64,000 bases of DNA, taken from the NCBI GenBank assembly GCA_035400945.1, contig DAONAJ010000003.1, positions 88,676 through 152,675 on the forward strand. Direction: 5' to 3'. The translations under genes and the position numbers were made by a program. Positions within the stretch are counted from its first letter, which is position 1. Every line of letters begins with the position of its first letter. Source of the stretch: Spirochaetota bacterium (lineage in GTDB: Bacteria; Spirochaetota; UBA4802; UBA5550). The notes under the pieces were generated by a model. It saw nothing but the letters and a program-made list of their open reading frames with translations, searched no databases and was not told the origin of the DNA. Positions 8,440 through 54,538 of this stretch are shown here, piece by piece.

Positions 8440-9546
8440 TCACCCCTTCCGCCGGACGAGGTCTTTCACATATTCGCCGATTGCCATTGAGCTTGTCAGG
8501 CCCGGCGACTCGATCCCGACGAGATTCACCAGGTGCGGAAAACCCGCGTCGCTTTCTTCCCTTATATAAAAATCCTTAACCTCTTTGCCGTCAGGGCCCT
8601 GGAGTTTAGGACGAATGCCGGCGGTATCGGGATGCAGTTCATCAGGGACGATCGACGGAAACATTTTTTTCGCCGACCTGTAGAAATAATCCTTCTTGCT
8701 GTCTGAGACGGAAAAATCATCAATACTGCCGATGTATTCGGTATCGGGACCGAAGCGGATCCTTCCATCCATGTCAATGGTCGCATGGACGCCCAGGCCG
8801 GTTAATTTTTTTTCCGGCACCGGGTACACCAGGTGACTGCACCGGATTTTTCCGGTATATGAAAAATAGGACCCCTTGCAGGGATGGATCGGCGGAACCG
8901 ATATTCCCGCCATTCCGGCCAAGGCCGTTGCGTGCAGGCCGGCCGCATTGATCACGTATTCGGTGGAAAACCTGCTGCCATCACCGAGTTCAAGCACATA
9001 ATGCTTATCCTGACGCAGGGAAACCACCGGTGAATTATACAGCAGGCTCCCGCCGTTCTGCTGCACATCGTACGCCATGGCCTTCATCAGCGAATGACTG
9101 TCGACTATGCCTGTTTCTTTGAGGTACAATGAGGCGGTTACATTGATGTGCGGCTCCAGCATGATGGATTCGTATGTATCCAGCAGCGCCACGTTTTCGA
9201 CGCCGTTCTTTCCGGCCTGGATGCGGAGCCACTCCAGCTCCGCTTCTTCTTCCGGACAGGTGGCGATGATCAGTTTGCCGCATTTTTTATGGGGGATATT
9301 CCGACGGGCGCAGTAATCGTACAGGAGCTTTCTGCCCCGGACGCAGAGCCTCTGCTTCAGGCTTCCCTCGCGGTAATAGATCCCGGAATGAATGACCTCG
9401 CTGTTGCGTGAACTGATCCCGCAGCCGAAGGTCTTCTCTTTTTCCACGACAAGGAGATCACCGCCGTCACTGCCGGCTTCGGCCAGGGCCCTGGCGACCG
9501 CGAGACCCACGACACCGGCCCCTATAATAGTATACTTGAAATCCAT
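8440..9546 (-). CDS. FAD-dependent oxidoreductase, L-2-hydroxyglutarate oxidase (LhgO/YgaF)-like
   Basis: 368 aa; N-terminal GAGVVG Rossmann dinucleotide fold; collinear similarity to LhgO (e.g. GSLKQRLCVRGRKLLYDYC...CGKLIIAT). Confidence 0.75.
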   Translation of the reverse strand: MDFKYTIIGAGVVGLAVARALAEAGSDGGDLLVVEKEKTFGCGISSRNSEVIHSGIYYREGSLKQRLCVRGRKLLYDYCARRNIPHKKCGKLIIATCPEEEAELEWLRIQAGKNGVENVALLDTYESIMLEPHINVTASLYLKETGIVDSHSLMKAMAYDVQQNGGSLLYNSPVVSLRQDKHYVLELGDGSRFSTEYVINAAGLHATALAGMAGISVPPIHPCKGSYFSYTGKIRCSHLVYPVPEKKLTGLGVHATIDMDGRIRFGPDTEYIGSIDDFSVSDSKKDYFYRSAKKMFPSIVPDELHPDTAGIRPKLQGPDGKEVKDFYIREESDAGFPHLVNLVGIESPGLTSSMAIGEYVKDLVRRKG

Positions 9547-38872: not shown

Positions 38873-39847
38873 ATGGCACGAATACTATCCGGCATACAGC
38901 CGTCGGGAACCCTTCACATAGCCAATTATTTCGCCATGATGAAGCCGATGATCGAATACCAGCATGATAATGACCTGTTCTGCTTTATCGTCAATTACCA
39001 TGCCATGACCAGCAACCAGGAGGGAGAGCGCCTCAGGAACTTCACCCTGGAGGCCGCCCTCGACTTTCTGGCCCTGGGCCTCGACCCCGATAAAAGCCAC
39101 TTCTGGGTCCAGTCGGACGTGCCGGAGGTGACGGAGCTGACCTGGATCCTGTCCTGCCACACATCGCTGGGTCTCCTCGAACGGAGCCACAGCTACAAGG
39201 ACAAGGTGGCCCACGGCATCGTCCCGAACACGGGCCTGTTCACCTACCCGGTCCTCATGGCCGCTGACATCCTCCTCTACCAGGCCCAGATCATCCCGGT
39301 GGGGAAAGACCAGAAGCAGCACGTGGAGATCACCCGGGACATCGCCATCCGCTTCAACAACATGTACGGCGAGATCTTCACCCTGCCGGAGCCGCGCATA
39401 TCCGACGATGCCGCCGTTATCCCCGGCATCGACGGGCAGAAGATGTCCAAGAGCTATGGCAACACCATCGAGATCTTCGAGGACGAGAAGTCCCTCAAGA
39501 AGAAAGTGATGCGGATCGTGACCGATTCCACGCCGGTGGAGGAGCCCAAGAACCCGGAGACCTGCAGCCTCTTCGCCCTGTACAGGCTCTTCGCGGAACC
39601 GTCGAAGGTCGAGAACATGAAGGACCGCTACCTGAAGGGCGGCCTCGGCTACGGGGAAGTCAAGAAAGAGCTCCTGGGCCTCATCTGGGAATACTTTGCC
39701 CCCTTCAGGAAAAAACGTGAGGAATACAGCAAGGACAAGGGCGAGGTGATCCGGATTTTAAAGAAAGGGGCCGATAAGACACGCGCTGTTGCCGCACCGA
39801 CCATGGAGCGCGTCAAGGAAGTGACCGGGCTCAGCTACAGCATGTAG
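38873..39847 (+). CDS. trpS: Tryptophan--tRNA ligase
   Basis: Start set at MARILSGIQPSGTLHIANY (class I HIGH-type region); KMSKS motif present; 324 aa. Confidence 0.9.
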   Translation: MARILSGIQPSGTLHIANYFAMMKPMIEYQHDNDLFCFIVNYHAMTSNQEGERLRNFTLEAALDFLALGLDPDKSHFWVQSDVPEVTELTWILSCHTSLGLLERSHSYKDKVAHGIVPNTGLFTYPVLMAADILLYQAQIIPVGKDQKQHVEITRDIAIRFNNMYGEIFTLPEPRISDDAAVIPGIDGQKMSKSYGNTIEIFEDEKSLKKKVMRIVTDSTPVEEPKNPETCSLFALYRLFAEPSKVENMKDRYLKGGLGYGEVKKELLGLIWEYFAPFRKKREEYSKDKGEVIRILKKGADKTRAVAAPTMERVKEVTGLSYSM

Positions 39848-39943
39848 CAGCCATAAAAGGATAACGCCCGCGCTCCCGTCCGCTTTGACCGGGATAAACC
39901 GCGTTCAATCCCCCCTATTAGCCGCGGTCCGGGAACATGCAGG

Positions 39944-39984
39944 ATACAATAAAAAAGCACTGCCCTGATGACGGGCAGTGCCCG
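39944..39984 (-). terminator. Rho-independent terminator after the 40028-40261 lipoprotein gene (minus strand)
   Basis: Minus-strand hairpin gcactgccc-gtcatca-gggcagtgc followed by TTTTTTATT. Confidence 0.55.
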
Positions 39985-40027
39985 GATGCCGCATAAAACA
40001 AGTTATGCGTCCTCGCGAACAATCATG

Positions 40028-40261
40028 CTACTTGATGGCCGCGCATTTGTCGCCGCACGCCTTTGCGTTCTTTTCGCATTCAGCTTTCTTTTTAGCGTCG
40101 ACTTTCTTGGTCTTCGCATCGGTCGCCTTGCTGATGCAGGCCGTCTTCTCGGCCGCGCACTTGTCGTTGCAATCCTTCCGTTTCTTCTCAACGCTCGCGC
40201 AGGAGACCAGGCCCGCCATAAAAACGGCAGCCATCATGACAATTATTGTTCTTTTCATCAA
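40028..40261 (-). CDS. Small Lys/Cys-rich lipoprotein
   Basis: 77 aa; signal peptide and lipobox (AGLVSC); mature part rich in K and regularly spaced Cys ([12 protein letters not shown]...[15 protein letters not shown]). Confidence 0.5.
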
Positions 40262-40644
40262 TTCCTCCGGTTTGGGTAATTTTGTTGCTATTTCGTATCA
40301 GCCGGCGATTTTATTCAAGAATTTTTTACCATCCACTTCCCGGACACACGGATTATTTTACTACCATCGTACGCGGCATCAGGGTCCTGCGGAACCGCAC
40401 AACACCTGTCCGAAACAGCATGGCGCGACAACTTCCAATTTCGGCACAAAAATGTCCGGGAAAAGATCCAGTAATTGAATTACCTCCATCACTGTGTGCT
40501 CTTTCAATCTATTCTGCTCTCCTTTCAATCAGGTTTTGCCTTGACTCTAGCGCGGGTGGTTTGCTAGCCTGCATGGAGAGGTTTCAAGAGTTTTATAAAG
40601 AATCTCTGTCCTGTTTAAACATAAAAAATCAAAGGGGTAGGCAA

Positions 40645-41502
40645 ATGGAAATCAAGAAAATTTGTGTGCTGGGCGCCGGCCTGATGGGCAACGGAATCGC
40701 GCAGGTCTGCGCCCAGGCCGGGTACGAAGTGGCCATGCGCGATATCGAACAGCGTTTTGTCGACGGCGGGATGAACACCATCAAAAAGAACCTGGGCCGC
40801 GACATGGAAAAGGGCAAAATCACCAAGGAGCAGATGGACGCGGTCCTGGGACGCATCAAGCCCACGGTGGACCTGAAGGAAGCGGCGGCCGGTGCTGATG
40901 TGGTGGTCGAGGTCGTCATTGAAGTCATGGATGTGAAGAAAAAGGTCTACGAGGAGCTCGAAAGCATTGTCCCGGCCCATTGCCTCTTCTTTACCAACAC
41001 ATCGGGCCTGAGCATCACAGAGATGGCCGCCGCGACCAAAAGGCCCGACAAGGTCATCGGCACCCATTTCTTCAACCCGGTGCCGGTCATGAAGCTCCTG
41101 GAACTGATCTGCTGCCACCAGACATCCGAGGAGACCCTGGCCGTGGCAAAGGAATGGGGAAGGAAAATCGGCAAGGAGGCCATTATCGTAAAGGAAGCGC
41201 CGGCCTTCGTCGTCAACCGCATACTCTGCACTATGATCAATGAAGCCTTCTTCACCCTGGATGAAGGCCTGGCCACGGCAGAGGACATCGACAAGGGCAT
41301 GATGCTGGGATGCAACCACCCCATCGGGCCCCTGGCGCTGGGCGACCTGATCGGCCTGGACACCCTGCTCCGCATCATGGAGGGCCTGCACCGGGAGCTG
41401 GGAGACAAGTACCGCCCCGCACCGCTCCTGAGAAAACTTGTCCGTGCGGGAAACTACGGCCGCAAGACCGGCCGCGGAGTATACGACTACAGCAAAAAAT
41501 AA
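40645..41502 (+). CDS. hbd: 3-hydroxybutyryl-CoA dehydrogenase (3-hydroxyacyl-CoA dehydrogenase family)
   Basis: Start set at [21 protein letters not shown] with RBS AAAGGGG; NAD-binding and C-terminal 3HCDH domains; the track ORF has a long spurious upstream extension. Confidence 0.85.
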
Positions 41503-41518
41503 TATAGCCGATCCCGCT

Positions 41519-41550
41519 GTGAAGGCACGGCAGCAAGCTCGTGCCTTCAC
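41519..41550. terminator. Stem-loop (10-bp stem) between convergent hbd and the 41588-41974 gene
   Basis: gtgaaggcac ... gtgccttcac; no clear U-tract on either strand. Confidence 0.35.
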
Positions 41551-41587
41551 CTTCATAGTCTGATTCGGGGATATCCTCCGCGCTCCA

Positions 41588-41974
41588 TCATCCCCCCTTC
41601 AGCTTTTTAAGTTTCTCGCGACCTTTCTCTGTCGTCCTGAGCTCGAATGGAAACGTATCCGAGAATACCTTCATTTCAACCCATTTATCCGGATTCCTGA
41701 TGAACCCATTCAGCTCCTCTTTCGAGACTTCTCTGCTCACGACCGGAACGTAAAAGTCCTCGTCTTTCATTACATACTCTGTTTTAATTACCGTGATCAA
41801 TCCTTCTTCAACGAGAGATCCGATAACCGCGCAGGCGAACCTGCATGCATCACCGTGGCCGAGCTTCTTGTCCCGAAATTGTATCTCGGTGACCAGGTTA
41901 CCCACGTTCAGGCCGAAGTCATCGGCCTCGATCAATACAGCTCCCTCGATTTCCATAATATCAATCATGCTCAT
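41588..41974 (-). CDS. Hypothetical protein (128 aa, no recognisable domain)
   Basis: ORF with coding-like composition; acidic N-terminus, basic C-terminal tail (KLKKLKGG). Confidence 0.45.
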   Translation of the reverse strand: MSMIDIMEIEGAVLIEADDFGLNVGNLVTEIQFRDKKLGHGDACRFACAVIGSLVEEGLITVIKTEYVMKDEDFYVPVVSREVSKEELNGFIRNPDKWVEMKVFSDTFPFELRTTEKGREKLKKLKGG

Positions 41975-42112
41975 TCTCCATAAAAAGGGTATTTACTATT
42001 GATACGGATTGAGGGGCTAAAAATTAAAAATATTTTGAAGCTAACTGCTTGTTAGGAGAGTCATGTATTGAATATCTCACGCATGATGGAAAACGGCAGA
42101 TGTGAAAGATCG

Positions 42113-42141
42113 AAAAAGCGCGGCCCCGGGGCCGCGCTTTT
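42113..42141 (-). terminator. Palindromic terminator after the RRM gene (bidirectional-capable)
   Basis: Perfect 20-nt palindrome gcgcggccccggggccgcgc flanked by A5 and T4. Confidence 0.55.
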
Positions 42142-42152
42142 AAGCGTAGAGT

Positions 42153-42428
42153 CTAGCGGAATCCTCTTCCGCCCCCGCCGCCGCCTCTCTTGTCTCCTTT
42201 CGGGCGGGCCTCATCCACCCGGAGGTTGCGCCCCTCAAGGTTAAAGCCGTCAAGGGCATTCTTCACGTTCTCCGCTTCCGACTGGCTGGACATCTCGACA
42301 AAGCCGAAGCCCTTGTCGCCGATGATCCGGATATCGACCACTGTGCCGTGCTGCGCGAAAAGTTCCTTTAACTGCTGTTCGCTCGCGGAATAACTGATGT
42401 TTCCGACGAAGAGTTTGCTCCCGTGCAT
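42153..42428 (-). CDS. RRM-type RNA-binding protein with Gly-rich C-terminal tail
   Basis: Start at MHGSKLFVGN with AGGAGG RBS; RNP-2 (LFVGNI) and RNP-1 (KGFGFVEM) motifs; GGGGGGRGFR tail. Confidence 0.8.
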   Translation of the reverse strand: MHGSKLFVGNISYSASEQQLKELFAQHGTVVDIRIIGDKGFGFVEMSSQSEAENVKNALDGFNLEGRNLRVDEARPKGDKRGGGGGGRGFR

Positions 42429-42616
42429 ACCATCCTCCTTTTTAATAACTATCGTGCTTAACAATGTCCGAAAAAGGAGATAGTTACATGGGGTCGAAGA
42501 CCTACATCCTTAGTGAGGAACTATCAAGCGTGTTTTGCTGCAATGATACATAGCCGCATAAAATAAGCAACCAATTTATCTGTTCATGGAATTACCGGGG
42601 CCGTGTTGATTGTCAT

Positions 42617-43033
42617 TTGCTCTATTATATTGTTGACAATAATTCATCAGCAAGAATGATTCGATGCTATAAAAATTTTCGGATTTACCTGGGCCACAGC
42701 GACCTTAATGCCCTGGGCCTGGTCAACAGCTACTATGTCAATATGACCGACGAAACACTGGTCTATAACCACACCATGACGGTGCCGGCCGGGCTCAAGG
42801 CGGGAGACTGGGTCGATATCCCCCTTGACATCGCCTTCGATTATGATCCCGGAAGCAATGTGGGAATTTACATTCTTCACGATGCCGGGTCGGGAGGGAT
42901 TGAAAACTTTGTGCATGCGGAGCAGGATGCGTACGAATATCCGTCACGCCTGCTGGGGATGGAAAACCAGTCTTCCAGCCTTCCCGGATGGAAAGCGGAT
43001 ATATCGTACTCGATCCGATTGGGCATGGAATAA
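42617..43033 (+). CDS. Hypothetical protein (start uncertain)
   Basis: 138 aa ORF; a sigma-70-like TTGACA box lies inside its 5' end, so the true start may be downstream; no domain recognised. Confidence 0.3.
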   Translation: MLYYIVDNNSSARMIRCYKNFRIYLGHSDLNALGLVNSYYVNMTDETLVYNHTMTVPAGLKAGDWVDIPLDIAFDYDPGSNVGIYILHDAGSGGIENFVHAEQDAYEYPSRLLGMENQSSSLPGWKADISYSIRLGME

Positions 43034-43118
43034 AACGCTTATCAGTAAACATGAAACGCCGGCGCTGGCTCCGCCGGCGTTTTACACCCGCCATTTATAT
43101 CGCGATCAATACGCCCCG

Positions 43119-43517
43119 TCACTCAAAGGGTATACAGCATTGCCCGTCAGCGCCCTGGGGACAATCCATGAATACCGTTCCGCCGGTTTTGCCTGGGCAG
43201 GATTCGGTCTTCAGTCTGCAAACGCCTCCTATGGCGGCGCACGACGTAACCGGCAGGCAGCATACGGCGCTGTCAGGCTCGTCCGGCAGGTCAGGGCATC
43301 CCCATCCGACCCATCCGACATGACTCTCACCGCAGCTGTTATACAGGTCATTGCAGAACCCGCCAACCCGCTCGCAATGGGTGCCCGATAATACGGCCAT
43401 CAGGGCTGTCGCAGTGTTTTTCGACGTATCGGATTTCTTTTCGCACTGTAAAGCCATGAGGGACAGGCTTCCCGCCAGTATCGAGACAACAGCAGTCATG
43501 CGGATAAATTTCCTCAT
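43119..43517 (-). CDS. Secreted cysteine-rich protein
   Basis: 132 aa; signal peptide; about 16 Cys in mature region with repeated GG[FV]C...C...C pattern (GGFCNDLYNSCGESH / GGVCRLKTESCPGK) and CC pairs. Confidence 0.5.
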   Translation of the reverse strand: MRKFIRMTAVVSILAGSLSLMALQCEKKSDTSKNTATALMAVLSGTHCERVGGFCNDLYNSCGESHVGWVGWGCPDLPDEPDSAVCCLPVTSCAAIGGVCRLKTESCPGKTGGTVFMDCPQGADGQCCIPFE

Positions 43518-43773
43518 AAATCCTCCCCGGTCAATATCCGGAAAGAGAAACCGTTATCGTGCGAACGCAGGTTTCGTTTTTCCCGGTGTTAATTAAAGCC
43601 ATTGTACGCAATAAGGTAGTAATCCGGACATCCGCAGACATCGTGGAAAACCCCGAGACGGGACTATTTTTCCCGGTTTCTTCATATATCGCGCCAAAGT
43701 ATTATCATTGACAATGATGAAATTATACACATAAATCAATCGGCGGAAAAAATCGGACCTGGCCCGGGATTAC

Positions 43774-45038
43774 ATGGGGCTCAGAGGGGAAATGCAGATG
43801 AACGCGACCTTGTGCACCGGGCTGGCGGCGGTCCTCGCCGGTATGTGTTCAATATCGTTTATTTATTTCGGGTTTTATCTCATCCCGGCGGCAAACAGAG
43901 ACGAACGCTTCAGGCCCCTCGTGTACCTATGCTTTTTTTCATCCGCCTGGAGCTTCTGCTATGTGTTGTATTTCCTGAGCAGGGACGCGTCCGCGCAGGA
44001 ATTCTGGCAGAGGTTCACCTTCGCGGGACAGTTCGCTTTTGCGTTTCTCTTGTGGTTCGTGATACGGTACTCCGATCCAATCCGGAGCAGGATCGCACAA
44101 ATAATCCCGGCCTCAATCCTGTGGATTCCCCCCTTCATCGGCTCATACATTGGAATTACCGAGAACGCGGTGGTGAGGGATTTCCCTTCGGGATTCTGGT
44201 TCTTATATGCCCAGATTCAAACTTCAATATACAATCTGGCCTCGATGATACTGCTGATTGTCTACCATTCCAGGCAGAAGACCAACAAGGGCAGGATGCA
44301 GGTCTATATCCTCACGTCGTCCGGGTTTGTGCTGGCCATCCTCTCATGGATGGCCGACTATTTGTTCGGCTACCGGGGCACCAGCAACATCATACCTTTC
44401 TGGCTGCTGGTCTGGATCGGCATACTTCTCTACATCATAAAAAAAAATACCGCCTTATCACCATCATGCCGGACTTCATCAGCAGGGACATCACCGAAAA
44501 TATCGAGGAAGGGATCATCCTCCTTGATACGTCCTTTAAGGTGATATTCAGCAACCGCGCGGCGCACGCACTGGTGAACGCGCGTCAGGGGGAGGAGGTC
44601 CGCTGGTTGGACATCGTTGTGGAGAAGCATGCGGTCCGGAGGGAATTCTCCGGACTGTTGAATTCAGACACGGCATCGGCCCGCATCCGTGTCAATATCC
44701 GGCAGCGCGGCGACGGAAGCGCAAAGATCCCCGTTGACCTGAAGGTGAAAAAGGTCATAGACTCCTTCAAGGACCTTTCTGGATTTCTCATCATCATGTC
44801 ACTGGTGAAGGAGCCGGGACATCTCAGAACCCTGCACGGCATAACGTCACGGGAGCTCGATGTGATCAGGCAGCTGGCCACCGGCAAGACGAACCGGGAG
44901 ATAGGGGTCATTCTCGGCATGACGGTACGTACCGTTGAAACACATATCACGAGCATCTTCGCCAAGATCGGGATCAAGAACAGGACCGAGCTCATGAGCG
45001 TGCTCTCCGGCTACGAGGGTTTCAAGGGGCAGGAATGA
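43774..45038 (+). pseudogene. 7TM receptor (family B)-PAS-LuxR one-component regulator, interrupted by a +1 frameshift at an A9 tract
   Basis: N-terminal 7TM (FWQRFTFAGQFAF, paralog of 16267 and 28204 N-termini) in frame 1 to 44544; PAS-like and LuxR/GerE HTH (ITSRELDVIRQLATGKTNREIGVILGMTVRTVETHI) in frame 3 to 45038; frames meet at AAAAAAAAA 44439-44447, and one extra A would fuse them (…LLYIIKKKYRLITIMPDF…). Confidence 0.7.
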
Positions 45039-45089
45039 CTGTATAGGGCCCGGATGACCCGCCGCATTCCGGGCGGCCATCGCCATCTA

Positions 45090-45680
45090 TTATTTTGCCG
45101 TCACCAATTCGGCCAGGCACGCCTTTGCCGAATCTTGCAGCCTGGAAATATTGTCTTTCACGTCACGCCGCTGCCCTTCATAGGTCCCGGCGCTGTATTG
45201 CCTGTTCACCGTAAAAAAATAAAACATGGTGCCGCCTTTGTCTGGAAGCGGGGCCCTGAGGGTCTTCACGGTCATCAGGATCGCCTTCTCCGCCTCTTTA
45301 AAGTACGCGGAACATTTCTCCATCTGTTTTCCCTTTCGGCCCGGAGCCGAGGCGGCTCTCCCGGCGCTGTCAACCATCCGCGCGCTCCCGTCTTTTTTCA
45401 CGACCAGCAGCACCAGCGCATCGCCATCCCATGTCTCCATCAGAACATGCACCAGGTCGTTGTCCTCGATATTATCGCTGAGGATGACGGAAGCCTCCGA
45501 GAAAATTTTCTCCCGCGCCTGCATATAAGCCTCGGGCAGACGGGAGGGATTCTCACCCTCTTCGATGGAGTGCGCGGTTATGGCCGCGGCCATCAGGCAG
45601 ACAAGAACGATTGCAATCTTCAATTTTTCCCCTGTCCGTTTATGTCTTACAGTGACAATGCCCCGTCCATTATCACACAT
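45090..45680 (-). CDS. Hypothetical membrane-anchored/secreted protein
   Basis: 196 aa; N-terminal hydrophobic segment (KIAIVLVCLMAAAITAHS); no known domain; overlaps rluD stop by 8 nt (operonic). Confidence 0.45.
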   Translation of the reverse strand: MCDNGRGIVTVRHKRTGEKLKIAIVLVCLMAAAITAHSIEEGENPSRLPEAYMQAREKIFSEASVILSDNIEDNDLVHVLMETWDGDALVLLVVKKDGSARMVDSAGRAASAPGRKGKQMEKCSAYFKEAEKAILMTVKTLRAPLPDKGGTMFYFFTVNRQYSAGTYEGQRRDVKDNISRLQDSAKACLAELVTAK

Positions 45681-46611
45681 GGAGCCGCTCTGCCTTATCG
45701 ATGAATTCCCGCATGTGCTCAGGGATGTCCGCCGAAAACGACATGGTCCCCCCCGTGGCAGGATGGGTGAACTCGAGCCTCACCGAGGCGAGGAGGAGAT
45801 ACGGCACCCGGTACTTCTCCCATTTCTTGGAATAGATGGGGTCCCCCACGATGGGGATGCTTGCGGAGGAGAGGTGCACCCGGATCTGGTGGGTCCTGCC
45901 GGTATGGAGGTCGATGTCAAGGAGCGTGAACACGCCAAGGCGGGAGTTGATCACCCTGCTCACCGTGAACTCCGTCAGGGCCTCACGGCCGCTCTCGTCG
46001 ATTGTCATCTTGTGGCGGTACTTCCGGTGCCTGCCGATGGGAAGGTCGATAAGGCCGTGGGCCTCCTTCGGCTTTCCCACGACCAGGGCGGCGTACTTCT
46101 TCCGCACCCTGCGCCCGCTGAACTCGGCGGTGAGGAACTGGTGCGCGGCGTCGTCCTTGGCGACCACCATCAGGCCGGCCGTGTCCTTGTCAAGGCGGTG
46201 CACGATGCCGGGCCGGGCAATGCCGCCGATGGAGGAAAGGTCTTTGATGTGATACAGGAGGCCGTTCACCATGGTGCGGTTCCAGTTTCCCGGCCCGGGA
46301 TGCACCACCAGGCCCGCCTGCTTGTTGACCACGACTATCGACCTGTCCTGGTAAACGATATCCAGGGGGATGTCTTCCGGCTCAAGCTCCAGCGGTTCCG
46401 GCTCGGGGATGACCACCACGATCCGGTCGTCGGTCTTGACCTTGTAGTTCGGCTTTATCGTCTTTTCGTTGACGGTAATGCTGCCGCCGTGGATCAGCTT
46501 CTGGATGTAGCTCCGCGACAGGTCCTGCTCGAGGGCAAGGGGCAGGAACTTGTCAACACGCTCCAGGTTGTTTTCTTCCGGCACAATCAGTTCTATGGGT
46601 TCAGCGCTCAT
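45673..46611 (-). CDS. rluD: RluA-family 23S rRNA pseudouridine synthase (RluD-like)
   Basis: 312 aa; N-terminal S4 domain, catalytic motif HRLDKDTAGLMVVAKDD. Confidence 0.85.
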   Translation of the reverse strand: MSAEPIELIVPEENNLERVDKFLPLALEQDLSRSYIQKLIHGGSITVNEKTIKPNYKVKTDDRIVVVIPEPEPLELEPEDIPLDIVYQDRSIVVVNKQAGLVVHPGPGNWNRTMVNGLLYHIKDLSSIGGIARPGIVHRLDKDTAGLMVVAKDDAAHQFLTAEFSGRRVRKKYAALVVGKPKEAHGLIDLPIGRHRKYRHKMTIDESGREALTEFTVSRVINSRLGVFTLLDIDLHTGRTHQIRVHLSSASIPIVGDPIYSKKWEKYRVPYLLLASVRLEFTHPATGGTMSFSADIPEHMREFIDKAERLHV

Positions 46612-47059
46612 GTATGAAGGTCAATCACTCCCTGTTCTATCGGCCCAGGCCGGTGTTTTGTATACTATTTCGTCATGGCGGTAAATTGCAATCACGTTTC
46701 ATCCATAGTGCGATAATATTTTTCATGGCAAAAAGAGTATTGCTTCGCTGCGCCCGTGCTAACACGCTGATGGAGGTATATCAAAAAGCATCAAATGGCC
46801 CCCATCCATGGGCAGGGTGAGGACTGGATACATCAACCACTTCTTCAGCATTGAAATAAAAAACCCGCCCCGGCCGGATTGATCCCGTTGAAAACTGTTT
46901 TTCATTTTGATACTTCTCTCTTTTTTGTTTTGACATTCAACCCGCGGTCCTGTAATGGTGCTATCTAAAATACAGAAACACATTCACCCCATTTGCACTT
47001 GTCGAACCGCCGGCACCGCCGCAGGCGGAGCAAATACTATTTGTTATTCGGAATTGGAT

Positions 47060-48049
47060 ATGAAACGGCATACTCGAACCATTTTACCGGTCCTGTTTTT
47101 CCTTCTCGTCATGACCGGGACCGGCGCCATGGCCGACACCGTCAGGCTTTACGATGGCACGGTCCTGGTGGGCAAAATCATCAGGGAAGACACGTCGGCC
47201 ATAACCTTCGCGAACTCCTACGGCACCTTCAAGATAAAACGGATCAGGATTGACGATATCTACAAAACCGAATCATACGATGAAGACATCGAAATCCACA
47301 GGAAGATGAAGTTTCCGGTAAACCTGTATAAAATCAGGGTCAATTACATTGCCGGGCTGAACAGGAAAGAGGGAAAGAAACGCGCGCTCATCCTTTTAAA
47401 AAAGGACAGGGAAAAGCGGGAAGCCAGACTGAAGGCCGAGAAAGAAAAAGCCGACAAGGAAAAAGCCAAGAAACAGGCAAAGGCCCGCGACAGGAAGAAA
47501 CGCCGAGGAGAAAGGCGCGGGCCCGTGACCGGGGACCACTGGACCAGCGGCCGCCTCTCCTTCTCCGGTGCTTTTCACTACAACCTGGGCAGCTCCCACA
47601 GCGCCCTTCCCCACGGGTATGCCGGCTATTTCGCCCTTGACCAGGGGCTGGACTTCGCCTCCGGCAGCCGCCATCCCATGATCCCGGGCCTCAGGTTCGA
47701 AGGCGGGTACATCTATTTCAAGAGATCATCGTACATGCTGTCGGGGTATCTCTTCGGCGGTGGGCTCATGTGGGCCTTTCCGTCCATGAAAAACAGCTGG
47801 GGCTGCTTTGTCCTGGCCCTCATACCCGGAGCCTCCTACCTGGAGGCGAAAATCAGCAGCTCCTTTCCCGGGATCGACGGCGGAACTTCCCGGGGCTTCA
47901 ACTTTTCCGCCCAGGCGATTTTCGGATACCAGAAATCCTTCGGCGTGTTCTCGATGTTCATCCAGGCACGGTACATGTACATCAAGGGGATGCGCTCGTA
48001 CTTTCATTCAGTCGCGGGAGAATGCGGATTCGGCTTCAATGCCTGGTAG
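47060..48049 (+). CDS. Hypothetical secreted/outer-membrane protein with KE-rich coiled-coil and C-terminal aromatic beta-rich domain
   Basis: Start at MKRHTRTILPVLFFLLVMTGTGAMA (signal peptide); Lys/Glu/Arg-rich segment; C-terminus ends GFGFNAW (OMP-like terminal aromatic). Confidence 0.5.
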   Translation: MKRHTRTILPVLFFLLVMTGTGAMADTVRLYDGTVLVGKIIREDTSAITFANSYGTFKIKRIRIDDIYKTESYDEDIEIHRKMKFPVNLYKIRVNYIAGLNRKEGKKRALILLKKDREKREARLKAEKEKADKEKAKKQAKARDRKKRRGERRGPVTGDHWTSGRLSFSGAFHYNLGSSHSALPHGYAGYFALDQGLDFASGSRHPMIPGLRFEGGYIYFKRSSYMLSGYLFGGGLMWAFPSMKNSWGCFVLALIPGASYLEAKISSSFPGIDGGTSRGFNFSAQAIFGYQKSFGVFSMFIQARYMYIKGMRSYFHSVAGECGFGFNAW

Positions 48050-48068
48050 GGTTATCCCGTCCGGCAGG

Positions 48069-49022
48069 CTATTGTTCCTCCTCCACCTTCTCGATGAGGC
48101 CCCTGCGCTCCATGTCCTGCAGGGTGTTGAGCTCGCTCTCTATGGCCTTTCTGGCTTCCGGGTCTTCAACAGTTTCCACATCGATCACCTGGTCTTTGCC
48201 GTTCCCGATCGACCCGGCCGGCGCCGCCTCCTCCCCGGTTTTCCGCGGTGTTTCGGTCTTTTCACCCCGGGCTTTTTCAGCCGATGAACCGTCCTCAAGA
48301 CTTTCCGGTTTTGATATGGAGAGCCCTTTTTTCCCTTCCTTCTCTTTCGGGACCGTTGAATAGGGCTCCGGTTCCTTGCGCTTCACGGCCACGGGCCGCT
48401 TTTTCTGCTCCGGCTTCTTTTTAAGTGCAACCGGTTTTTTCGGCCCACCCTTACCGGGCGCGACCTCTTTCTCTTCACCGGGCCCGTTCATGGCCTCCCC
48501 GGCCTCTGTTCCGGTGTAATCGACGCTTGACATCACCTCGTTGAAAACGTCCGTGTATCGCGAGAAGGAGCCGATGGGGGCCCTGCACTCGATGACCAGG
48601 GTGTTGCTGCCATACCGCGAGAACATGGTGCGCTGGAGCATCCTCACGCCCCGGGAATAATAATCGAAAACAACGACCTTGACCGTCACGTTGCCGCCTG
48701 CGGCCAGCTCCTTCGTCTCGATGATCTTCCTGAAGCCCTGCCCGGTTCCCGGGCCCAGCAGTTTCCTCCAGACGCTCAGTTCCTGAGCGCCCTCCCCGCC
48801 GGCGGGCAAAGCCGTGACGGCTATCTCGGTTCCGGCCGCGCGGGCGCGCCTGAAGATCACGTGATGCCGGTCCCCGTCTTCCCGGTAATTCTTTTTCCAG
48901 TCCGCCGGGGCGCAGATGCTGTAGTGGAAACCGGTGTCGCTGTACCTCCTGCACTCGGAGGCACGGGCCATTGATGGCAACAGCGCAACAATTACGAAGG
49001 GAAGAAGGGCAACGTTTTTCAT
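48069..49022 (-). CDS. Hypothetical secreted protein with KE/P-rich C-terminal tail
   Basis: Start at MKNVALLPFVIVALLPSMARA (signal peptide); globular N-domain then low-complexity acidic/lysine tail; convergent with the previous gene. Confidence 0.5.
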   Translation of the reverse strand: MKNVALLPFVIVALLPSMARASECRRYSDTGFHYSICAPADWKKNYREDGDRHHVIFRRARAAGTEIAVTALPAGGEGAQELSVWRKLLGPGTGQGFRKIIETKELAAGGNVTVKVVVFDYYSRGVRMLQRTMFSRYGSNTLVIECRAPIGSFSRYTDVFNEVMSSVDYTGTEAGEAMNGPGEEKEVAPGKGGPKKPVALKKKPEQKKRPVAVKRKEPEPYSTVPKEKEGKKGLSISKPESLEDGSSAEKARGEKTETPRKTGEEAAPAGSIGNGKDQVIDVETVEDPEARKAIESELNTLQDMERRGLIEKVEEEQ

Positions 49023-49240
49023 AGGGGTCAAACATCCATGTCTACTAGCATTAAGGACTACCGCCATCCCGGGGATCGTATTTATGAAAGCAAAAACATT
49101 GGTGCGAGTCAATAACATTTTCCCCCCGCCCCGCCGGGACATAAAAAATAGGTTGATTATTCCCTGCCGGTGTGGGACATTTTTCCAGGGACGGCGGACC
49201 CGTCCCCGTTTCCCGGCAACACACCCAGGGAGGTGGCATC

Positions 49241-50620
49241 ATGAAGATCACGGTCCTCAACGGAAGCCCCAAGGGGGACACGAGCGTCACCATGCAGTAT
49301 ATCCGGTATACGCAAAAACAGCACCCGGACCACACGTACTACATCCATGACATTTCCCGGGGGATAAAGGTCATCGAAAAGGATCCGAAGGCCTTCCGCG
49401 CCGTCCTGGAGGATGTCAGGGCATCAGAGCTCGTCATCTGGGCATTCCCCCTCTACTACTTCCTTGTCCCGTCGCAGTACAAACGATTCATAGAGCTGGT
49501 GTTCGAGGGGAAAGCTGCCCCGGCCTTCAGATCAAAATTCGCAGCGGTCATCACGACCTCCATCCATTTCTTCGACCACACGGCGCACAACTACATGCGC
49601 GCCATCTGCGATGACCTTGCTATGAAATTCGCCGGTTCCTACTCCGCCTCCATGTACGACCTGGTGAGGAGCCGTGAGCGGAAGCGCTTTGACGCCTTCA
49701 CAACATGCATGTTCGACGCCGTGCGGGACAACACGCCTGCGGCGCGGGCCTATTACCCAGTCAGCGCCAGGATGTCGCCGTACCGGCCCTCCCCGCCGAA
49801 AATCAGGATCAATCCCGCCGGGAAAAACATCGTCATCATCACCGACGCAGCCTCCCCCTCATCCAACCTTGGGAAGATGGCCGAGCGCCTCAGCCGGTCC
49901 TTTACCGAGGCGCCGCCGGTATACAACCTCCACGACCTCAAGATCAAGGGGGGATGCCTGGGGTGCCTCCAGTGCGCCTACGACAACCGGTGCGTGTACG
50001 GGGACAGCGACGACTTTCACCTCTTCTTTGAAAGCAGGATCAAGGCGGCGGACATCATCTTTTACTGCATGGAGACGCGGGACCGGTACCTTTCGTCCCT
50101 GTGGAAGCGGTTCATCGACAGGAGCTTCTACAACAATCACACCCCCGTCCTCGAAGGAAAGCAGATAGGGTGCCTCGTGTCGGGCCCGCTGGGGAAACTT
50201 TCGTCCTTCAATGAATTTCTCCGCTGCTTTCCGGAATTCCAGCATGCAAACCTTGTTGATATCGTCACAGACGAAGGCGGGAACTCGAAGGTTCTGGACC
50301 TGCAGATCCAGAACCTGGCCTCCAACGCCGTTGCCCGGGCCGAGAAGAATTACATAGGACCCCAGACCTTCCAGAGCGTCGGCGGCTGGAAGATTTTCAG
50401 GGACGAGATCTGGAGCTGGCTGCGTTTTCCCTTCCTGGCCGACCACCGCTACTACAAGAAGCACGGCATGTACGACTTCCCGAAGCGGCGCTTCACGCAG
50501 AGCCTGGTCAACGGGGCCCTTTCGCAGATGGTCAGGTTCCCCGGCTTCAGGGAGGTCGTGTACAAGCAGCGCATGAAGGATGAGATGCTGCGGCCCTTCA
50601 AGACCATCCTGAAGCAGTAG
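49241..50620 (+). CDS. Tandem flavodoxin-like-fold protein (NAD(P)H-dependent FMN reductase-like) with Isf-type Cys cluster motif
   Basis: 460 aa from MKITVLNGSPKGDTS (RBS GGGAGG); second flavodoxin-like repeat (KNIVIITDAASPSS...) carries C-x2-C-x2-C-x5-C (CLGCLQCAYDNRC), the iron-sulfur flavoprotein 4Fe-4S pattern. Confidence 0.65.
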   Translation: MKITVLNGSPKGDTSVTMQYIRYTQKQHPDHTYYIHDISRGIKVIEKDPKAFRAVLEDVRASELVIWAFPLYYFLVPSQYKRFIELVFEGKAAPAFRSKFAAVITTSIHFFDHTAHNYMRAICDDLAMKFAGSYSASMYDLVRSRERKRFDAFTTCMFDAVRDNTPAARAYYPVSARMSPYRPSPPKIRINPAGKNIVIITDAASPSSNLGKMAERLSRSFTEAPPVYNLHDLKIKGGCLGCLQCAYDNRCVYGDSDDFHLFFESRIKAADIIFYCMETRDRYLSSLWKRFIDRSFYNNHTPVLEGKQIGCLVSGPLGKLSSFNEFLRCFPEFQHANLVDIVTDEGGNSKVLDLQIQNLASNAVARAEKNYIGPQTFQSVGGWKIFRDEIWSWLRFPFLADHRYYKKHGMYDFPKRRFTQSLVNGALSQMVRFPGFREVVYKQRMKDEMLRPFKTILKQ

Positions 50621-50670
50621 GCAATAAGTAGCACTGCATCCAAAACCGCAATCGGGCATTTACCCCAGTA

Positions 50671-50698
50671 AAAACAGGCCCGGTCCTTTCCTGTTTTA
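50671..50698 (+). terminator. Weak terminator-like hairpin after the flavodoxin-like gene
   Basis: aaacagg-cccggtcctttc-cctgtttt. Confidence 0.4.
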
Positions 50699-50782
50699 GG
50701 ATTTTATCTTGACAATTTAGCTGAACACTGTTAAATTAACATTGTTCATATTATTAATGACAATTATTCAGGAAGGACGGCA

Positions 50783-51415
50783 ATGCCCAAAACCAGCAGA
50801 AGCGCCGAAGAAGTGGCGCAGGTCCGGGAGCATATTCTTAGCGCGGCCATCGGGATCATAGCCGACAAGGGATTCAGCCGCCTGAGCATGCGCAGCCTGG
50901 CGTCGGCCATCGGCATGACCGCCGCCAACATCTATAATTATTACAGCAGCAAGGACGAGCTGTACCTTGACATCCAGACCGCCGGATTCCAGGAACTCTA
51001 CGCCCGCTTTGCCGGTGCGCGGGACCGTGAAAAAACGCCGCTGAAAAAAATCGCGGCGATCATGAAGGAATATATATCATACGGAACATCCAACCCGGAC
51101 AGCTACAATATCATCTTCAGCATGGATACGCCCAAGTACGCCGATTACCGCGACACGCAGATCGAGCCGGTTGCCTACGCTGAAAAGAAAGCGGGGCTGG
51201 ACCTCATAGAGATAACCCGCCCCGTCGTGGCGGAGCTTCTGAAAAAGCGCGGGAAGCCAGCCGCCGGGGCATGGAAAAAAACCGTGCAGGCGTGGATCAT
51301 GCTCCATGGCATCGTAAGCCTCATGAACAGCCGCGTCCTCCAGGAGGTGGCGGATGACAGCTCCCGATTCATAGACGAAAGCGTGAAAGACGTTGTCAAT
51401 TACCTGCTCTCATAA
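50783..51415 (+). CDS. TetR/AcrR family transcriptional regulator
   Basis: 210 aa; N-terminal TetR HTH (ILSAAIGIIADKGFSRLSMRSLASAIGMTAANIYNYYSSKDELY); 26 bp upstream of the GRE gene. Confidence 0.85.
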   Translation: MPKTSRSAEEVAQVREHILSAAIGIIADKGFSRLSMRSLASAIGMTAANIYNYYSSKDELYLDIQTAGFQELYARFAGARDREKTPLKKIAAIMKEYISYGTSNPDSYNIIFSMDTPKYADYRDTQIEPVAYAEKKAGLDLIEITRPVVAELLKKRGKPAAGAWKKTVQAWIMLHGIVSLMNSRVLQEVADDSSRFIDESVKDVVNYLLS

Positions 51416-51441
51416 AACCTGACGCTACCGGGAGACCGCCC

Positions 51442-54399: not shown

Positions 54400-54538
54400 C
54401 TCATGCCGTGGGGCAAAACAAAGGATCAAGTATTGCCGGCAATTGTACGATAATACGGTATGCATGCCGCCGACGGCGGCACCGGGAATTGATCATTACG
54501 TTTTCCAGGCAGATTGACACTATTCCGGAGAAACCGCG

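What the first reader, a model, noticed from the sequence alone, without database searches (positions are those of the whole stretch)
44430..44460. A9 homopolymer frameshift splits the 7TM-PAS-LuxR regulator, a possible slipped-strand phase switch
The 7TM half (frame 1) and the PAS-LuxR half (frame 3) of one gene are joined only if the A9 tract at 44439-44447 gains one A (…LLYIIKKKYRLITIMPDF…). This could be a sequencing/assembly error at a homopolymer, a genuine pseudogene, or a contingency locus switching the regulator on and off.
Basis: seen in the sequence. Interest (0 to 1): 0.55.

Follow-up and report, generated by a model that had tools for sequence, protein, structure and literature searches.

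The report
Real poly-A frameshift splitting accessory regulator
A run of nine A's really does break a membrane-anchored sensor-regulator gene of an uncultured spirochaete in two. It is a genuine replication-slippage mutation, not a sequencing error, and the run has eight A's in a sister strain. No working version was found anywhere, so it looks more like a dispensable gene being lost than an on/off switch.

Summary
A9 lies at 44439-44447, exactly between a frame-1 HisKA_7TM half and a frame-3 PAS-like/LuxR-HTH half. Twenty-eight homologues are single-frame proteins, and the four loci whose DNA I could read carry ATT/ATA AAA AAA TAC (A6/A7) at this site. The window allele is therefore A7+2.

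Assembly error is excluded. A9 recurs in six metagenome assemblies from several pipelines, plus NCBI MAG proteins.

A sister strain (99.55% identical over 15.1 kb) carries A8, also out of frame. That is the only indel among 68 differences, so the tract is hypermutable. No in-frame allele (A7 or A10) exists in about 15 billion public proteins, and the tract length is constant among samples of one strain. A relative 96-98% identical in the flanks lacks the whole 2.5-kb segment that carries the gene.

Best reading (about 0.55): a recent slipped-strand inactivation of a dispensable accessory regulator. Leaky rescue by transcriptional slippage is plausible but untested.

Rival readings:
- Phase variation, about 0.2.
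- Functional slippage or recoding, about 0.1.
- Gene fission, about 0.07.

Overall this is an ordinary finding of low to moderate interest.

The parts
43774..44447 (+). N-terminal half of the regulator gene (frame 1): seven-TM HisKA_7TM sensor module, ending in the Lys codons of the A tract. NCBI MAG annotation starts at the ATG at 43798 (MNATL...).
   Evidence: ORF list; Pfam PF16927, 37.3 bits against a cut-off of 28.6; seven helices up to residue 225 in the AF2 model; NCBI name 'histidine kinase N-terminal 7TM domain-containing protein' for HNW30796.1/HPV40044.1.
44439..44447 (+). A9 homopolymer, the site of the frameshift. It is an ancestral A7 (ATA AAA AAA, Ile-Lys-Lys) expanded by two A's. 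It also forms an A_AAA_AAA heptamer in the zero frame.
   Evidence: Sequence; orthologue DNA ATT/ATA AAA AAA TAC; A8 in sister strain L027/L028; A9 in L001-L004, L007 and L030.
44448..44544 (+). Out-of-frame tail of the truncated product (NTALSPSCRTSSAGTSPKISRKGSSSLIRPLR) and its TGA stop. The asparagine codon AAT begins at 44446, inside the A tract.
   Evidence: Translation of ORF 43774-44544; identical protein P0006 in public assemblies.
44448..45038 (+). C-terminal half (frame 3): juxtamembrane linker, PAS-like domain and LuxR/GerE helix-turn-helix. It is intact, with no stop in 197 codons.
   Evidence: GerE 55.9 bits; PAS-like fold and HTH in the AF2 model; Foldseek matches to EL222, VqmA and NifL PAS; no excess divergence relative to the N half.
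44466..45038 (+). 190-aa ORF from ATG (M232) that NCBI annotates as a separate 'helix-turn-helix transcriptional regulator'. No Shine-Dalgarno-like sequence is seen upstream. Other gene callers start at GTG 44541 (165 aa).
   Evidence: P0038/HPV40045.1, P0036 and P0040; gene calls in L001 and L027; upstream sequence read directly.
42584..45107 (.). 2.5-kb strain-variable segment carrying a 125-aa ORF, a Cys-rich 132-aa predicted secreted protein and the regulator. It is absent from a relative whose flanks are 96-98% identical.
   Evidence: blastn of L029 against the window, and tblastn of the regulator against L029, which is negative. Contigs L002 and L007 break at 42570-42573.

Best explanation
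The gene encodes a membrane-tethered one-component regulator: a 7-TM sensor, then a PAS-like domain, then a LuxR-type HTH. In the lineage of this uncultured Spirochaetota bacterium, the Ile-Lys-Lys codons just after TM7 (ancestrally ATA AAA AAA, an A7 run) expanded by replication slippage. One strain now has A8 and this strain has A9, and both lengths are out of frame. The chromosome therefore specifies a 7-TM protein with a 32-residue nonsense tail. The PAS-LuxR half has no translation start of its own, so the regulator is switched off. The copy is dispensable. It belongs to a multi-copy family, sits on a 2.5-kb strain-variable segment, and is absent from a close relative. The frameshift is therefore best read as an early step of gene loss. 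An A9 run is long enough for RNA polymerase slippage, so a minority of transcripts (A10 or A7) probably still encode full-length protein. This leak is inferred, not shown. Shown here: the tract, the frames, the domain architecture, the in-frame A6/A7 in orthologues, reproducibility across assemblies, the A8/A9 polymorphism, the absence of ON alleles, and the absence of the segment in a relative. Inferred: loss of function, neutrality, and the slippage leak.
For: - **Tract and frames:** the A9 and the two reading frames are as described.
- **Architecture:** HisKA_7TM plus GerE by Pfam, and PAS-LuxR by structure.
- **Homologues:** 28 are single-frame with exactly two residues where the A10 repair gives three, and with invariant 40-residue spacing across the junction. 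Orthologue DNA at this site is A6/A7, in frame.
- **Not an error:** the same A9 allele, at 100% or 99.94% identity, occurs in JGI 3300010357, 3300009696 and 3300009682, ENA ERZ795063 and ERZ795044, and Logan SRR6476075. The proteins of two NCBI TPA MAGs carry the A9-type tail.
- **Hypermutable tract:** the sister strain (ERR14964774, ERR14964780) is 99.55% identical over 15.1 kb and has A8. This is the only indel among 68 differences, and none of five other 7-base runs in that stretch changed.
- **No ON allele:** 12 in-frame variants (A7/A10, three starts, two strains) are absent from about 15 billion proteins. No full-length hit above 67% identity was found.
- **Dispensable:** relative L029 (96-98% identical flanks) lacks window 42584-45107 entirely.
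- **Multi-copy family:** P0016 and P0017 are reported with the same longest contig, 365,883 bp. I did not fetch that contig, so their co-occurrence on it is not confirmed.
- **No recoding signal:** there is no stimulatory RNA structure 5-9 nt downstream of the tract (z = -1.6).
- **Hint of relaxed constraint:** the window lineage carries G101D and L112P in the TM region, where the sister strain keeps the family majority residue.
Against: - Both halves are otherwise intact.
- The C half shows no faster divergence than the N half relative to the closest homologue. Lineage-specific changes are N 16:11 and C 10:7, odds ratio 1.0.
- Between the two strains the C half has 1 nonsynonymous against 2 synonymous changes. 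The frameshift is therefore either very recent or the gene is still under some selection.
- Two different out-of-frame lengths in strains that differ by 0.5-0.9% mean the tract moved at least twice. That is also what a contingency locus would show.
- dN/dS cannot discriminate. The counts are 6N:5S in the regulator against 11N:23S in the flanks (Fisher p = 0.28), and p = 0.13 against neutrality.
- Assemblies give only consensus sequence, so minority ON cells would be invisible.
- Some of the 'independent' assemblies may derive from the same read sets.
- The homologue search is not exhaustive.
Confidence: 0.55

Rival explanations
1. Phase-variable contingency locus. Replication slippage moves the tract among A7 (ON), A8 and A9 (OFF) and A10 (ON, with an extra Lys). 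This would reversibly switch the regulator and its regulon in subpopulations.
For: - The tract is the only indel in 15.1 kb between two strains (A8 against A9).
- Both halves are intact, and the C half shows no extra decay.
- The tract lies in the coding region of a regulator, in a juxtamembrane Lys cluster that might tolerate a change in length (low-confidence linker 225-235).
Against: - No ON length was found in any of 8 samples or in 12 exact look-ups, and there was no full-length hit above 67% identity.
- The length is invariant (A9) across six samples of the same strain.
- The tract is not a conserved feature of the family. Homologues have in-frame A6/A7, or Arg/Gly/Phe codons in 10 of 28 cases.
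- The A10 ON state would break a linker length that is invariant in 28 homologues.
- The gene is absent in a close relative.
- No other coding homopolymer of 9 or more bases is present in 64 kb.
Confidence: 0.2
2. Functional recoding. The frameshift is decoded on purpose, by transcriptional slippage on A9 or by -1 ribosomal frameshifting on A_AAA_AAA. One gene would then yield a fixed ratio of a 7TM-only protein and the full-length regulator, as in T. thermophilus dnaX or C. rodentium tssM1.
For: - A9 equals the run length at which slippage becomes efficient in many bacteria. Disrupted ORFs restorable by slippage are known (PMC1088944).
- tssM1 uses an A11 run to make two required products (PMC4256274).
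- Frameshifted poly-A genes in Blochmannia stay intact and are proposed to be rescued by transcriptional slippage (PMC3017870).
- Here the zero-frame heptamer A_AAA_AAA is present, and both halves are intact.
Against: - The frameshift is not conserved. All 28 homologues are single-frame.
- The sister strain's A8 needs a different shift, so a -1 ribosomal shift cannot serve both strains.
- There is no downstream stimulatory structure at the usual spacing, and no SD-like stimulator is seen upstream.
- The +1A product has a linker length that no homologue has.
- The gene is dispensable in a relative.
Confidence: 0.1
3. Gene fission. The split creates two working genes, a 7-TM membrane protein and a soluble 190-aa PAS-LuxR regulator translated from ATG 44466. 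This would free the regulator from membrane tethering.
For: - The 190-aa ORF contains the complete PAS-like and HTH module.
- It is the size and fold of stand-alone regulators such as VqmA and EL222.
- NCBI annotates it as a separate gene.
- It is preserved in both the A8 and A9 strains with 1 nonsynonymous and 2 synonymous changes.
Against: - No Shine-Dalgarno-like sequence precedes ATG 44466. The gene's own start does have a GAGGGG motif.
- The ATG lies inside the translated out-of-frame tail of the upstream ORF.
- Gene callers disagree on the start, ATG 44466 or GTG 44541.
- No stand-alone 190-aa homologues appear among the family hits, which are all 7TM-fused or truncated by contig ends.
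Confidence: 0.07
4. Sequencing or assembly error at a homopolymer, with the real genome being in frame.
For: Homopolymers are classic error sites. One homologous locus, L024 (contig_13364, whose name suggests a long-read assembly), is riddled with frameshifts.
Against: - A9 is reproduced at 100% or 99.94% identity in six assemblies made by JGI, ENA/SPAdes and Logan pipelines, and the NCBI MAG proteins carry the A9-type tail.
- A8 is reproduced in two runs of another strain.
- There is no other indel in the 15.1 kb between the strains.
- Other genes in the window are not broken at homopolymers.
Confidence: 0.03

Closest known systems
Frameshifts in poly-A/poly-T tracts of otherwise intact bacterial genes (Blochmannia/Buchnera genes, PMC3017870; disrupted ORFs with 9A/9T runs, Baranov et al. 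2005, PMC1088944)
   Same: There is a single indel inside an A run of about 9. The gene is otherwise intact and shows no accelerated divergence. The same ambiguity applies between very recent erosion and rescue by transcriptional slippage.
   Different: The host here is a free-living bacterium with 56% GC, not an AT-rich endosymbiont. The gene is accessory and absent in a relative. The frameshift is not conserved beyond two near-identical strains. No RNA data exist.
Programmed transcriptional slippage giving two products (T. thermophilus dnaX A9; C. rodentium tssM1 A11, PMC4256274)
   Same: A poly-A run lies at the boundary between a membrane or N-terminal module and a C-terminal domain. The truncated product and the full-length product would differ by a whole functional domain.
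   Different: In those cases the out-of-frame arrangement is conserved and both products are shown to be needed. Here the homologues are in frame, the tract length differs between strains, and nothing has been shown experimentally.
Simple-sequence contingency loci and phase-variable regulators (homopolymer switches in Haemophilus, Neisseria, Campylobacter and Helicobacter; poly-G tracts upstream of Treponema pallidum tpr genes).
   Same: A homopolymer in a gene changes length by slipped-strand mispairing, and the length differs between closely related strains.
   Different: No ON length has been observed. The tract is short (ancestral A7) and made of A rather than G/C. It is not conserved in the family. 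The target is a transcription regulator rather than a surface or modification gene. Within-population heterogeneity is untested.
PAS-LuxR one-component regulators VqmA and EL222, and HisKA_7TM sensor modules
   Same: The cytoplasmic half has the PAS-like plus LuxR-HTH fold (Foldseek E = 1e-7 to 1e-6). The N half matches Pfam HisKA_7TM.
   Different: VqmA and EL222 are soluble. Here the module is fused to a 7-TM domain normally found on histidine kinases. Sequence identity to the solved structures is only 13-19%. The ligand and the regulon are unknown.

Membership tests
7TM-PAS-LuxR membrane-tethered one-component regulator (HisKA_7TM + GerE family found here) | N-terminal HisKA_7TM domain above the Pfam gathering score | tested here: met
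   PF16927 scores 37.3 bits against a cut-off of 28.6, over residues 25-233. The model has seven helices.
7TM-PAS-LuxR membrane-tethered one-component regulator (HisKA_7TM + GerE family found here) | C-terminal LuxR/GerE helix-turn-helix | tested here: met
   PF00196 scores 55.9 bits against a cut-off of 23.5. The model has a four-helix HTH at 359-411.
7TM-PAS-LuxR membrane-tethered one-component regulator (HisKA_7TM + GerE family found here) | PAS domain between the two | tested here: inconclusive
   By sequence it is below cut-off: PAS_8 13.9 bits against 21.8, PAS 12.3 against 22.6. By predicted structure it is met: PAS-like topology, and Foldseek matches to EL222, VqmA, NifL PAS and others, with target-normalised TM-score up to 0.8.
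7TM-PAS-LuxR membrane-tethered one-component regulator (HisKA_7TM + GerE family found here) | Single uninterrupted reading frame of about 405-430 aa | tested here: not met
   The gene is split at A9 into a 256-aa ORF and a frame-3 remainder. Most of the 28 homologues are single-frame proteins of about 405-430 aa, and a few are cut short.
Phase-variable (contingency) locus | Hypermutable simple repeat within the gene or its promoter | tested here: met
   A9 lies in the coding sequence. It is the only indel in 15.1 kb between strains.
Phase-variable (contingency) locus | Both ON and OFF repeat lengths occur in natural populations | tested here: not met
   Only A8 and A9, both OFF, occur in 8 samples. 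Twelve ON variants are absent from about 15 billion proteins. No full-length close hit was found.
Phase-variable (contingency) locus | Length heterogeneity within a single population or culture | not testable with these tools
   Only consensus assemblies are available, and no reads. The consensus is identical (A9) in six samples of one strain.
Programmed recoding (transcriptional slippage or -1 ribosomal frameshift) | Slippery sequence: a run of at least 9 A/T, or an X_XXY_YYZ heptamer in the zero frame | tested here: met
   A9 is present, with A_AAA_AAA in the zero frame. The 9-nt threshold comes from PMC1088944.
Programmed recoding (transcriptional slippage or -1 ribosomal frameshift) | Out-of-frame arrangement conserved among orthologues | tested here: not met
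   All 28 homologues are in frame at this site, and four orthologue DNAs have A6/A7 in frame. The sister strain needs a different shift.
Programmed recoding (transcriptional slippage or -1 ribosomal frameshift) | Stimulatory element: a downstream structure at 5-9 nt or an upstream SD-like sequence | tested here: not met
   The fold of 44448-44567 has z = -1.63, and its only solid hairpin starts about 53 nt downstream. No SD-like motif is seen upstream.
Programmed recoding (transcriptional slippage or -1 ribosomal frameshift) | Two protein products, or heterogeneous mRNA tract lengths | not testable with these tools
   This needs RNA or protein data.
Pseudogene (recent) | Reading frame disrupted relative to intact homologues | tested here: met
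Pseudogene (recent) | Relaxed constraint or further lesions | tested here: inconclusive
   There are no further stops or indels. The relative-rate test is flat: N 16:11, C 10:7. Between strains the counts are 6N:5S against 11N:23S in the flanks, p = 0.28. Two radical changes (G101D, L112P) lie on the window lineage.
Pseudogene (recent) | Gene dispensable in close relatives | tested here: met
   L029 (96-98% identical flanks) lacks window 42584-45107.

The most novel reading that the evidence does not exclude
The tract might be a working device rather than damage. In a free-living anaerobic Spirochaetota bacterium, a coding poly-A run right after TM7 would set the expression of a membrane-tethered PAS-LuxR regulator. 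It could do so by reversible DNA slippage (A7/A8/A9/A10, a phase-variable regulon). Or it could do so by RNA-polymerase slippage that yields a tuned mix of a 7TM-only protein and the full-length regulator. In that case the A8-to-A9 expansion would be a compensatory step that raises the slippage rate.
Probability: 0.15. Interest if true: 0.5.

Novelty: new member of a known kind. Interest (0 to 1): 0.25.

Why it matters
The case is mainly useful as a worked example for annotating MAGs. A split gene at a homopolymer could be shown to be real, and not an assembly error, by finding the same allele in independent public assemblies. It could be dated as recent by comparing strains. The practical consequence is that this regulator should be annotated as a frameshifted pseudogene, not as the two separate genes currently in NCBI.

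If read-level or RNA data later show in-frame subpopulations or slippage rescue, this would be a rare example of poly-A-controlled expression of a transcription regulator outside pathogens and endosymbionts. The family itself, a histidine-kinase-type 7TM sensor fused directly to PAS-LuxR, is uncharacterised. It would be the more interesting target for experiments.

Tried and rejected
- **Genome and metagenome scans.** The alignment-based scans returned almost only unrelated LuxR HTH hits. One extra A9 contig (L007) and one partial homologue (L008) were gained.
- **Wasted contig look-ups.** Three look-ups went to JGI sample 3300075153, whose DNA could not be served.
- **Rfam.** No RNA family matched in the window.
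- **Frameshift-stimulating structure.** A fold of the 120 nt downstream of the tract was not significant.
- **Promoter and terminator scan.** Only weak consensus matches were found, and no weight was placed on them.
- **P0026/L024.** This looked like a second frameshifted orthologue. It has several frame changes elsewhere, and its A7 tract is in frame. It probably reflects errors in a long-read assembly or an unrelated decay, so it was not used as evidence.
- **dN/dS between strains.** There are too few substitutions to decide.
- **Second homologue search with the C half.** It returned only the known 190-aa cluster. It also showed that the word-seeded search is not exhaustive.
- **Literature on HisKA_7TM.** Only two census papers turned up, with nothing on this architecture.
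- **Islet boundaries.** I looked for flanking direct repeats at the boundaries of the 2.5-kb segment and saw none.

Full report
**1. The observation**

The window reads ...CTC TAC ATC ATA AAA AAA AAT ACC GCC.... The A run is exactly nine bases, 44439-44447. A frame-1 ORF (43774-44544, 256 aa) ends ...LLYIIKKNTALSPS...*. A frame-3 ORF continues to 45038 and reads ...KKKYRLITIMPDFISRDITENIEEG.... Adding one A gives a 421-aa protein.

- Pfam finds HisKA_7TM over residues 25-233, across the junction (37.3 bits, cut-off 28.6), and GerE/LuxR HTH over 357-409 (55.9 bits, cut-off 23.5). The PAS models fall below their cut-offs.
- An AlphaFold model built on 29 sequences (mean pLDDT 79) shows seven TM helices up to residue 225, a low-confidence linker at 225-235, a PAS-like alpha/beta domain and a four-helix HTH.
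- Foldseek against the PDB puts the PAS/LOV-LuxR regulators EL222 and VqmA first, followed by many PAS domains.

This is the only homopolymer of 9 or more bases inside a coding region of the 64-kb window.

**2. What the in-frame state looks like**

Across the junction they all have two residues (18 of 28 have KK) where the A10 repair gives KKK. The spacing from TM7 to the invariant ENIEEG motif is identical, at 40 residues, in all 28.

The DNA of four homologous loci reads ATT AAA AAA TAC or ATA AAA AAA TAC, that is A6 or A7, in frame. The window allele is therefore an A7 tract that gained two A's. Losing two A's would recreate the family-typical protein. Gaining one A restores the frame but lengthens a linker whose length is otherwise invariant.

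**3. Not an assembly error**

The 256-aa truncated protein exists verbatim in public data (P0006). Contigs carrying it come from these sources, and all have A9:

- JGI 3300010357, 3300009696 and 3300009682
- ENA ERZ795063 and ERZ795044
- Logan SRR6476075

They are 100% identical to the window, except the 3300009682 contig (L030, protein variant P0035), which differs by one SNP. NCBI TPA MAGs labelled Spirochaetota bacterium annotate the two halves as separate genes: HNW30796.1 and HPV40044.1 for the N half, HPV40045.1 for the C half.

One caveat applies. Some ENA and Logan assemblies may re-use JGI reads. Even so, at least three JGI samples and several assemblers agree.

**4. The tract does move**

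The same protein cluster contains P0034, a 250-aa protein whose tail is in the other wrong frame. Its contigs (ERR14964774 and ERR14964780) are 99.55% identical to window 39427-54527 and carry A8. Of the 68 differences over 15.1 kb, this is the only indel. None of five other 7-base runs in that stretch changed.

At least two slippage events therefore hit this tract within a very shallow divergence, and both surviving alleles are out of frame.

**5. No ON allele**

- Twelve possible in-frame proteins (A7 or A10, three start codons, both strains) are absent from the collection of about 15 billion proteins.
- The homologue search shows nothing full-length above 67% identity.
- A second search with the C half finds only the 190-aa fragment cluster.

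That second search also shows the tool is not exhaustive, so this negative is good but not absolute.

**6. Is the gene decaying?**

- Apart from the tract, there are no stops or indels in either half.
- A relative-rate comparison with the closest homologue, P0001, gives lineage-specific changes of 16:11 in the N half and 10:7 in the C half. The untranslatable half is not diverging faster.
- Between the A9 and A8 strains the regulator has 6 nonsynonymous and 5 synonymous differences (N half 5:3, C half 1:2). The flanking genes have 11:23. This is indistinguishable both from the flanks (p = 0.28) and from neutrality (p = 0.13).
- Two of the window-lineage changes, G101D and L112P in the TM region, are radical.

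The data fit a very recent inactivation. They cannot exclude continued selection.

**7. Genomic context**

The locus lies in a patch of raised divergence: 20 SNPs in 2.4 kb against about 0.15% elsewhere, Poisson p about 3e-6. A third relative, L029 (JGI 3300045276), has flanks 96-98% identical but lacks window 42584-45107 altogether. That segment carries a 125-aa ORF, a Cys-rich 132-aa predicted secreted protein and the regulator. Two short contigs from other samples break at 42570-42573, the edge of this segment, which suggests mixed strains in those samples.

The family appears to be multi-copy. P0016 and P0017 are reported with the same longest contig, though I did not fetch it to confirm. 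The homologous loci I could read are not syntenic with the window. This copy is therefore accessory and dispensable.

**8. Mechanistic alternatives**

A9 reaches the run length at which transcriptional slippage becomes efficient in many bacteria, and disrupted ORFs that slippage could restore are documented (PMC1088944). The tssM1 gene of C. rodentium uses an A11 run to make two required products (PMC4256274). Blochmannia keeps frameshifted poly-A genes intact, and they are proposed to be rescued by slippage (PMC3017870). The zero frame here also contains the heptamer A_AAA_AAA.

Several points argue against a programmed device:

- The frameshift is not conserved in homologues.
- The A8 strain would need a different shift.
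- No stimulatory structure lies at the usual distance.

An unselected leak of full-length protein through RNA-polymerase slippage remains likely on general grounds, but it is not shown.

The 190-aa ORF from ATG 44466 contains a complete PAS-LuxR module, of VqmA or EL222 size. It has no visible ribosome-binding site, and it lies inside the translated tail of the upstream ORF.

**9. Verdict**

The feature is real, and it arose by slipped-strand mispairing. The most probable reading (about 0.55) is a recent, fixed inactivation of a dispensable accessory regulator at a mutable Lys-Lys poly-A run, with possible slippage leak. The other readings are:

| Reading | Probability |
|---|---|
| Phase variation | about 0.2 |
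| Functional recoding | about 0.1 |
| Gene fission | about 0.07 |
| Assembly error | about 0.03 |

It is a new instance of a well-known kind of event, and its interest is low to moderate. Read-level tract counts, in DNA and in RNA, would settle the matter.

Noticed in passing
window 42584-45107 and 41501-42111; L029 3992-5889: Compared with relative L029 (96-98% identical flanks), the window has two extra segments. One is 2.5 kb and carries a 125-aa ORF, a Cys-rich 132-aa ORF and the regulator. The other is 0.6 kb and carries a 128-aa ORF. L029 instead has a 561-aa PLAT-domain gene inserted between the RluA-family pseudouridine synthase gene and the 196-aa gene, which overlap by 8 nt in the window. 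This is a small hot spot of gene gain and loss. No flanking repeats were seen.
   Followed up: partly
window 50300-50620 (3' end of the 459-aa flavodoxin/FMN-reductase-like gene, 49241-50620): Most of the 28 substitutions in this gene between the window and sister strain L027 cluster in codons 360-454, and most of those are synonymous. Most neighbouring genes have none or one. This looks like a short recombination import from a more divergent strain.
   Followed up: no
window 43119-43517 (- strand): This is a 132-aa ORF transcribed divergently from the regulator. It has a signal or lipoprotein-like N-terminus (...LMALQC) and about 14 cysteines. It has no Pfam match, but it is conserved verbatim in 15 public contigs. 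It might be a target of the regulator.
   Followed up: partly
window 43812-44438, frame 3: The -1 frame is open for about 209 codons upstream of the tract, over the whole 7TM region, which gives a spurious 408-aa ORF. This is probably a by-product of TM-rich coding: T at codon position 2 forbids stops in that frame. I did not test this.
   Followed up: no
L024 5001-6270 (ENA ERZ25039513 contig_13364): A homologue about 62% identical (P0026) changes frame several times over 1.2 kb, while its A7 tract is in frame. The contig name suggests a long-read assembly, so these are probably indel errors, or else an independently decayed copy.
   Followed up: partly
window 42114-42141: A perfect 28-bp palindrome (AAAGCGCGGCCCCGGGGCCGCGCTTT) lies just downstream of the RRM-domain RNA-binding protein gene (42153-42428, - strand). 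It is a likely bidirectional terminator. The region around this gene is only 84% identical in L029, although the flanks are 96-98% identical.
   Followed up: no
window 8806-8813: A T8 run (A8 on the coding strand) lies inside an apparently intact 368-aa ORF (8440-9546, - strand). It is an in-frame counterpart of the tract studied here and a possible second slippage-prone site.
   Followed up: partly
tool behaviour: The word-seeded homologue search with the full fused protein did not return the 99%-identical 190-aa C-half cluster (P0037). The search with the C half did not return the 50-69%-identical family members. Negative results from this tool should be treated as incomplete.
   Followed up: yes
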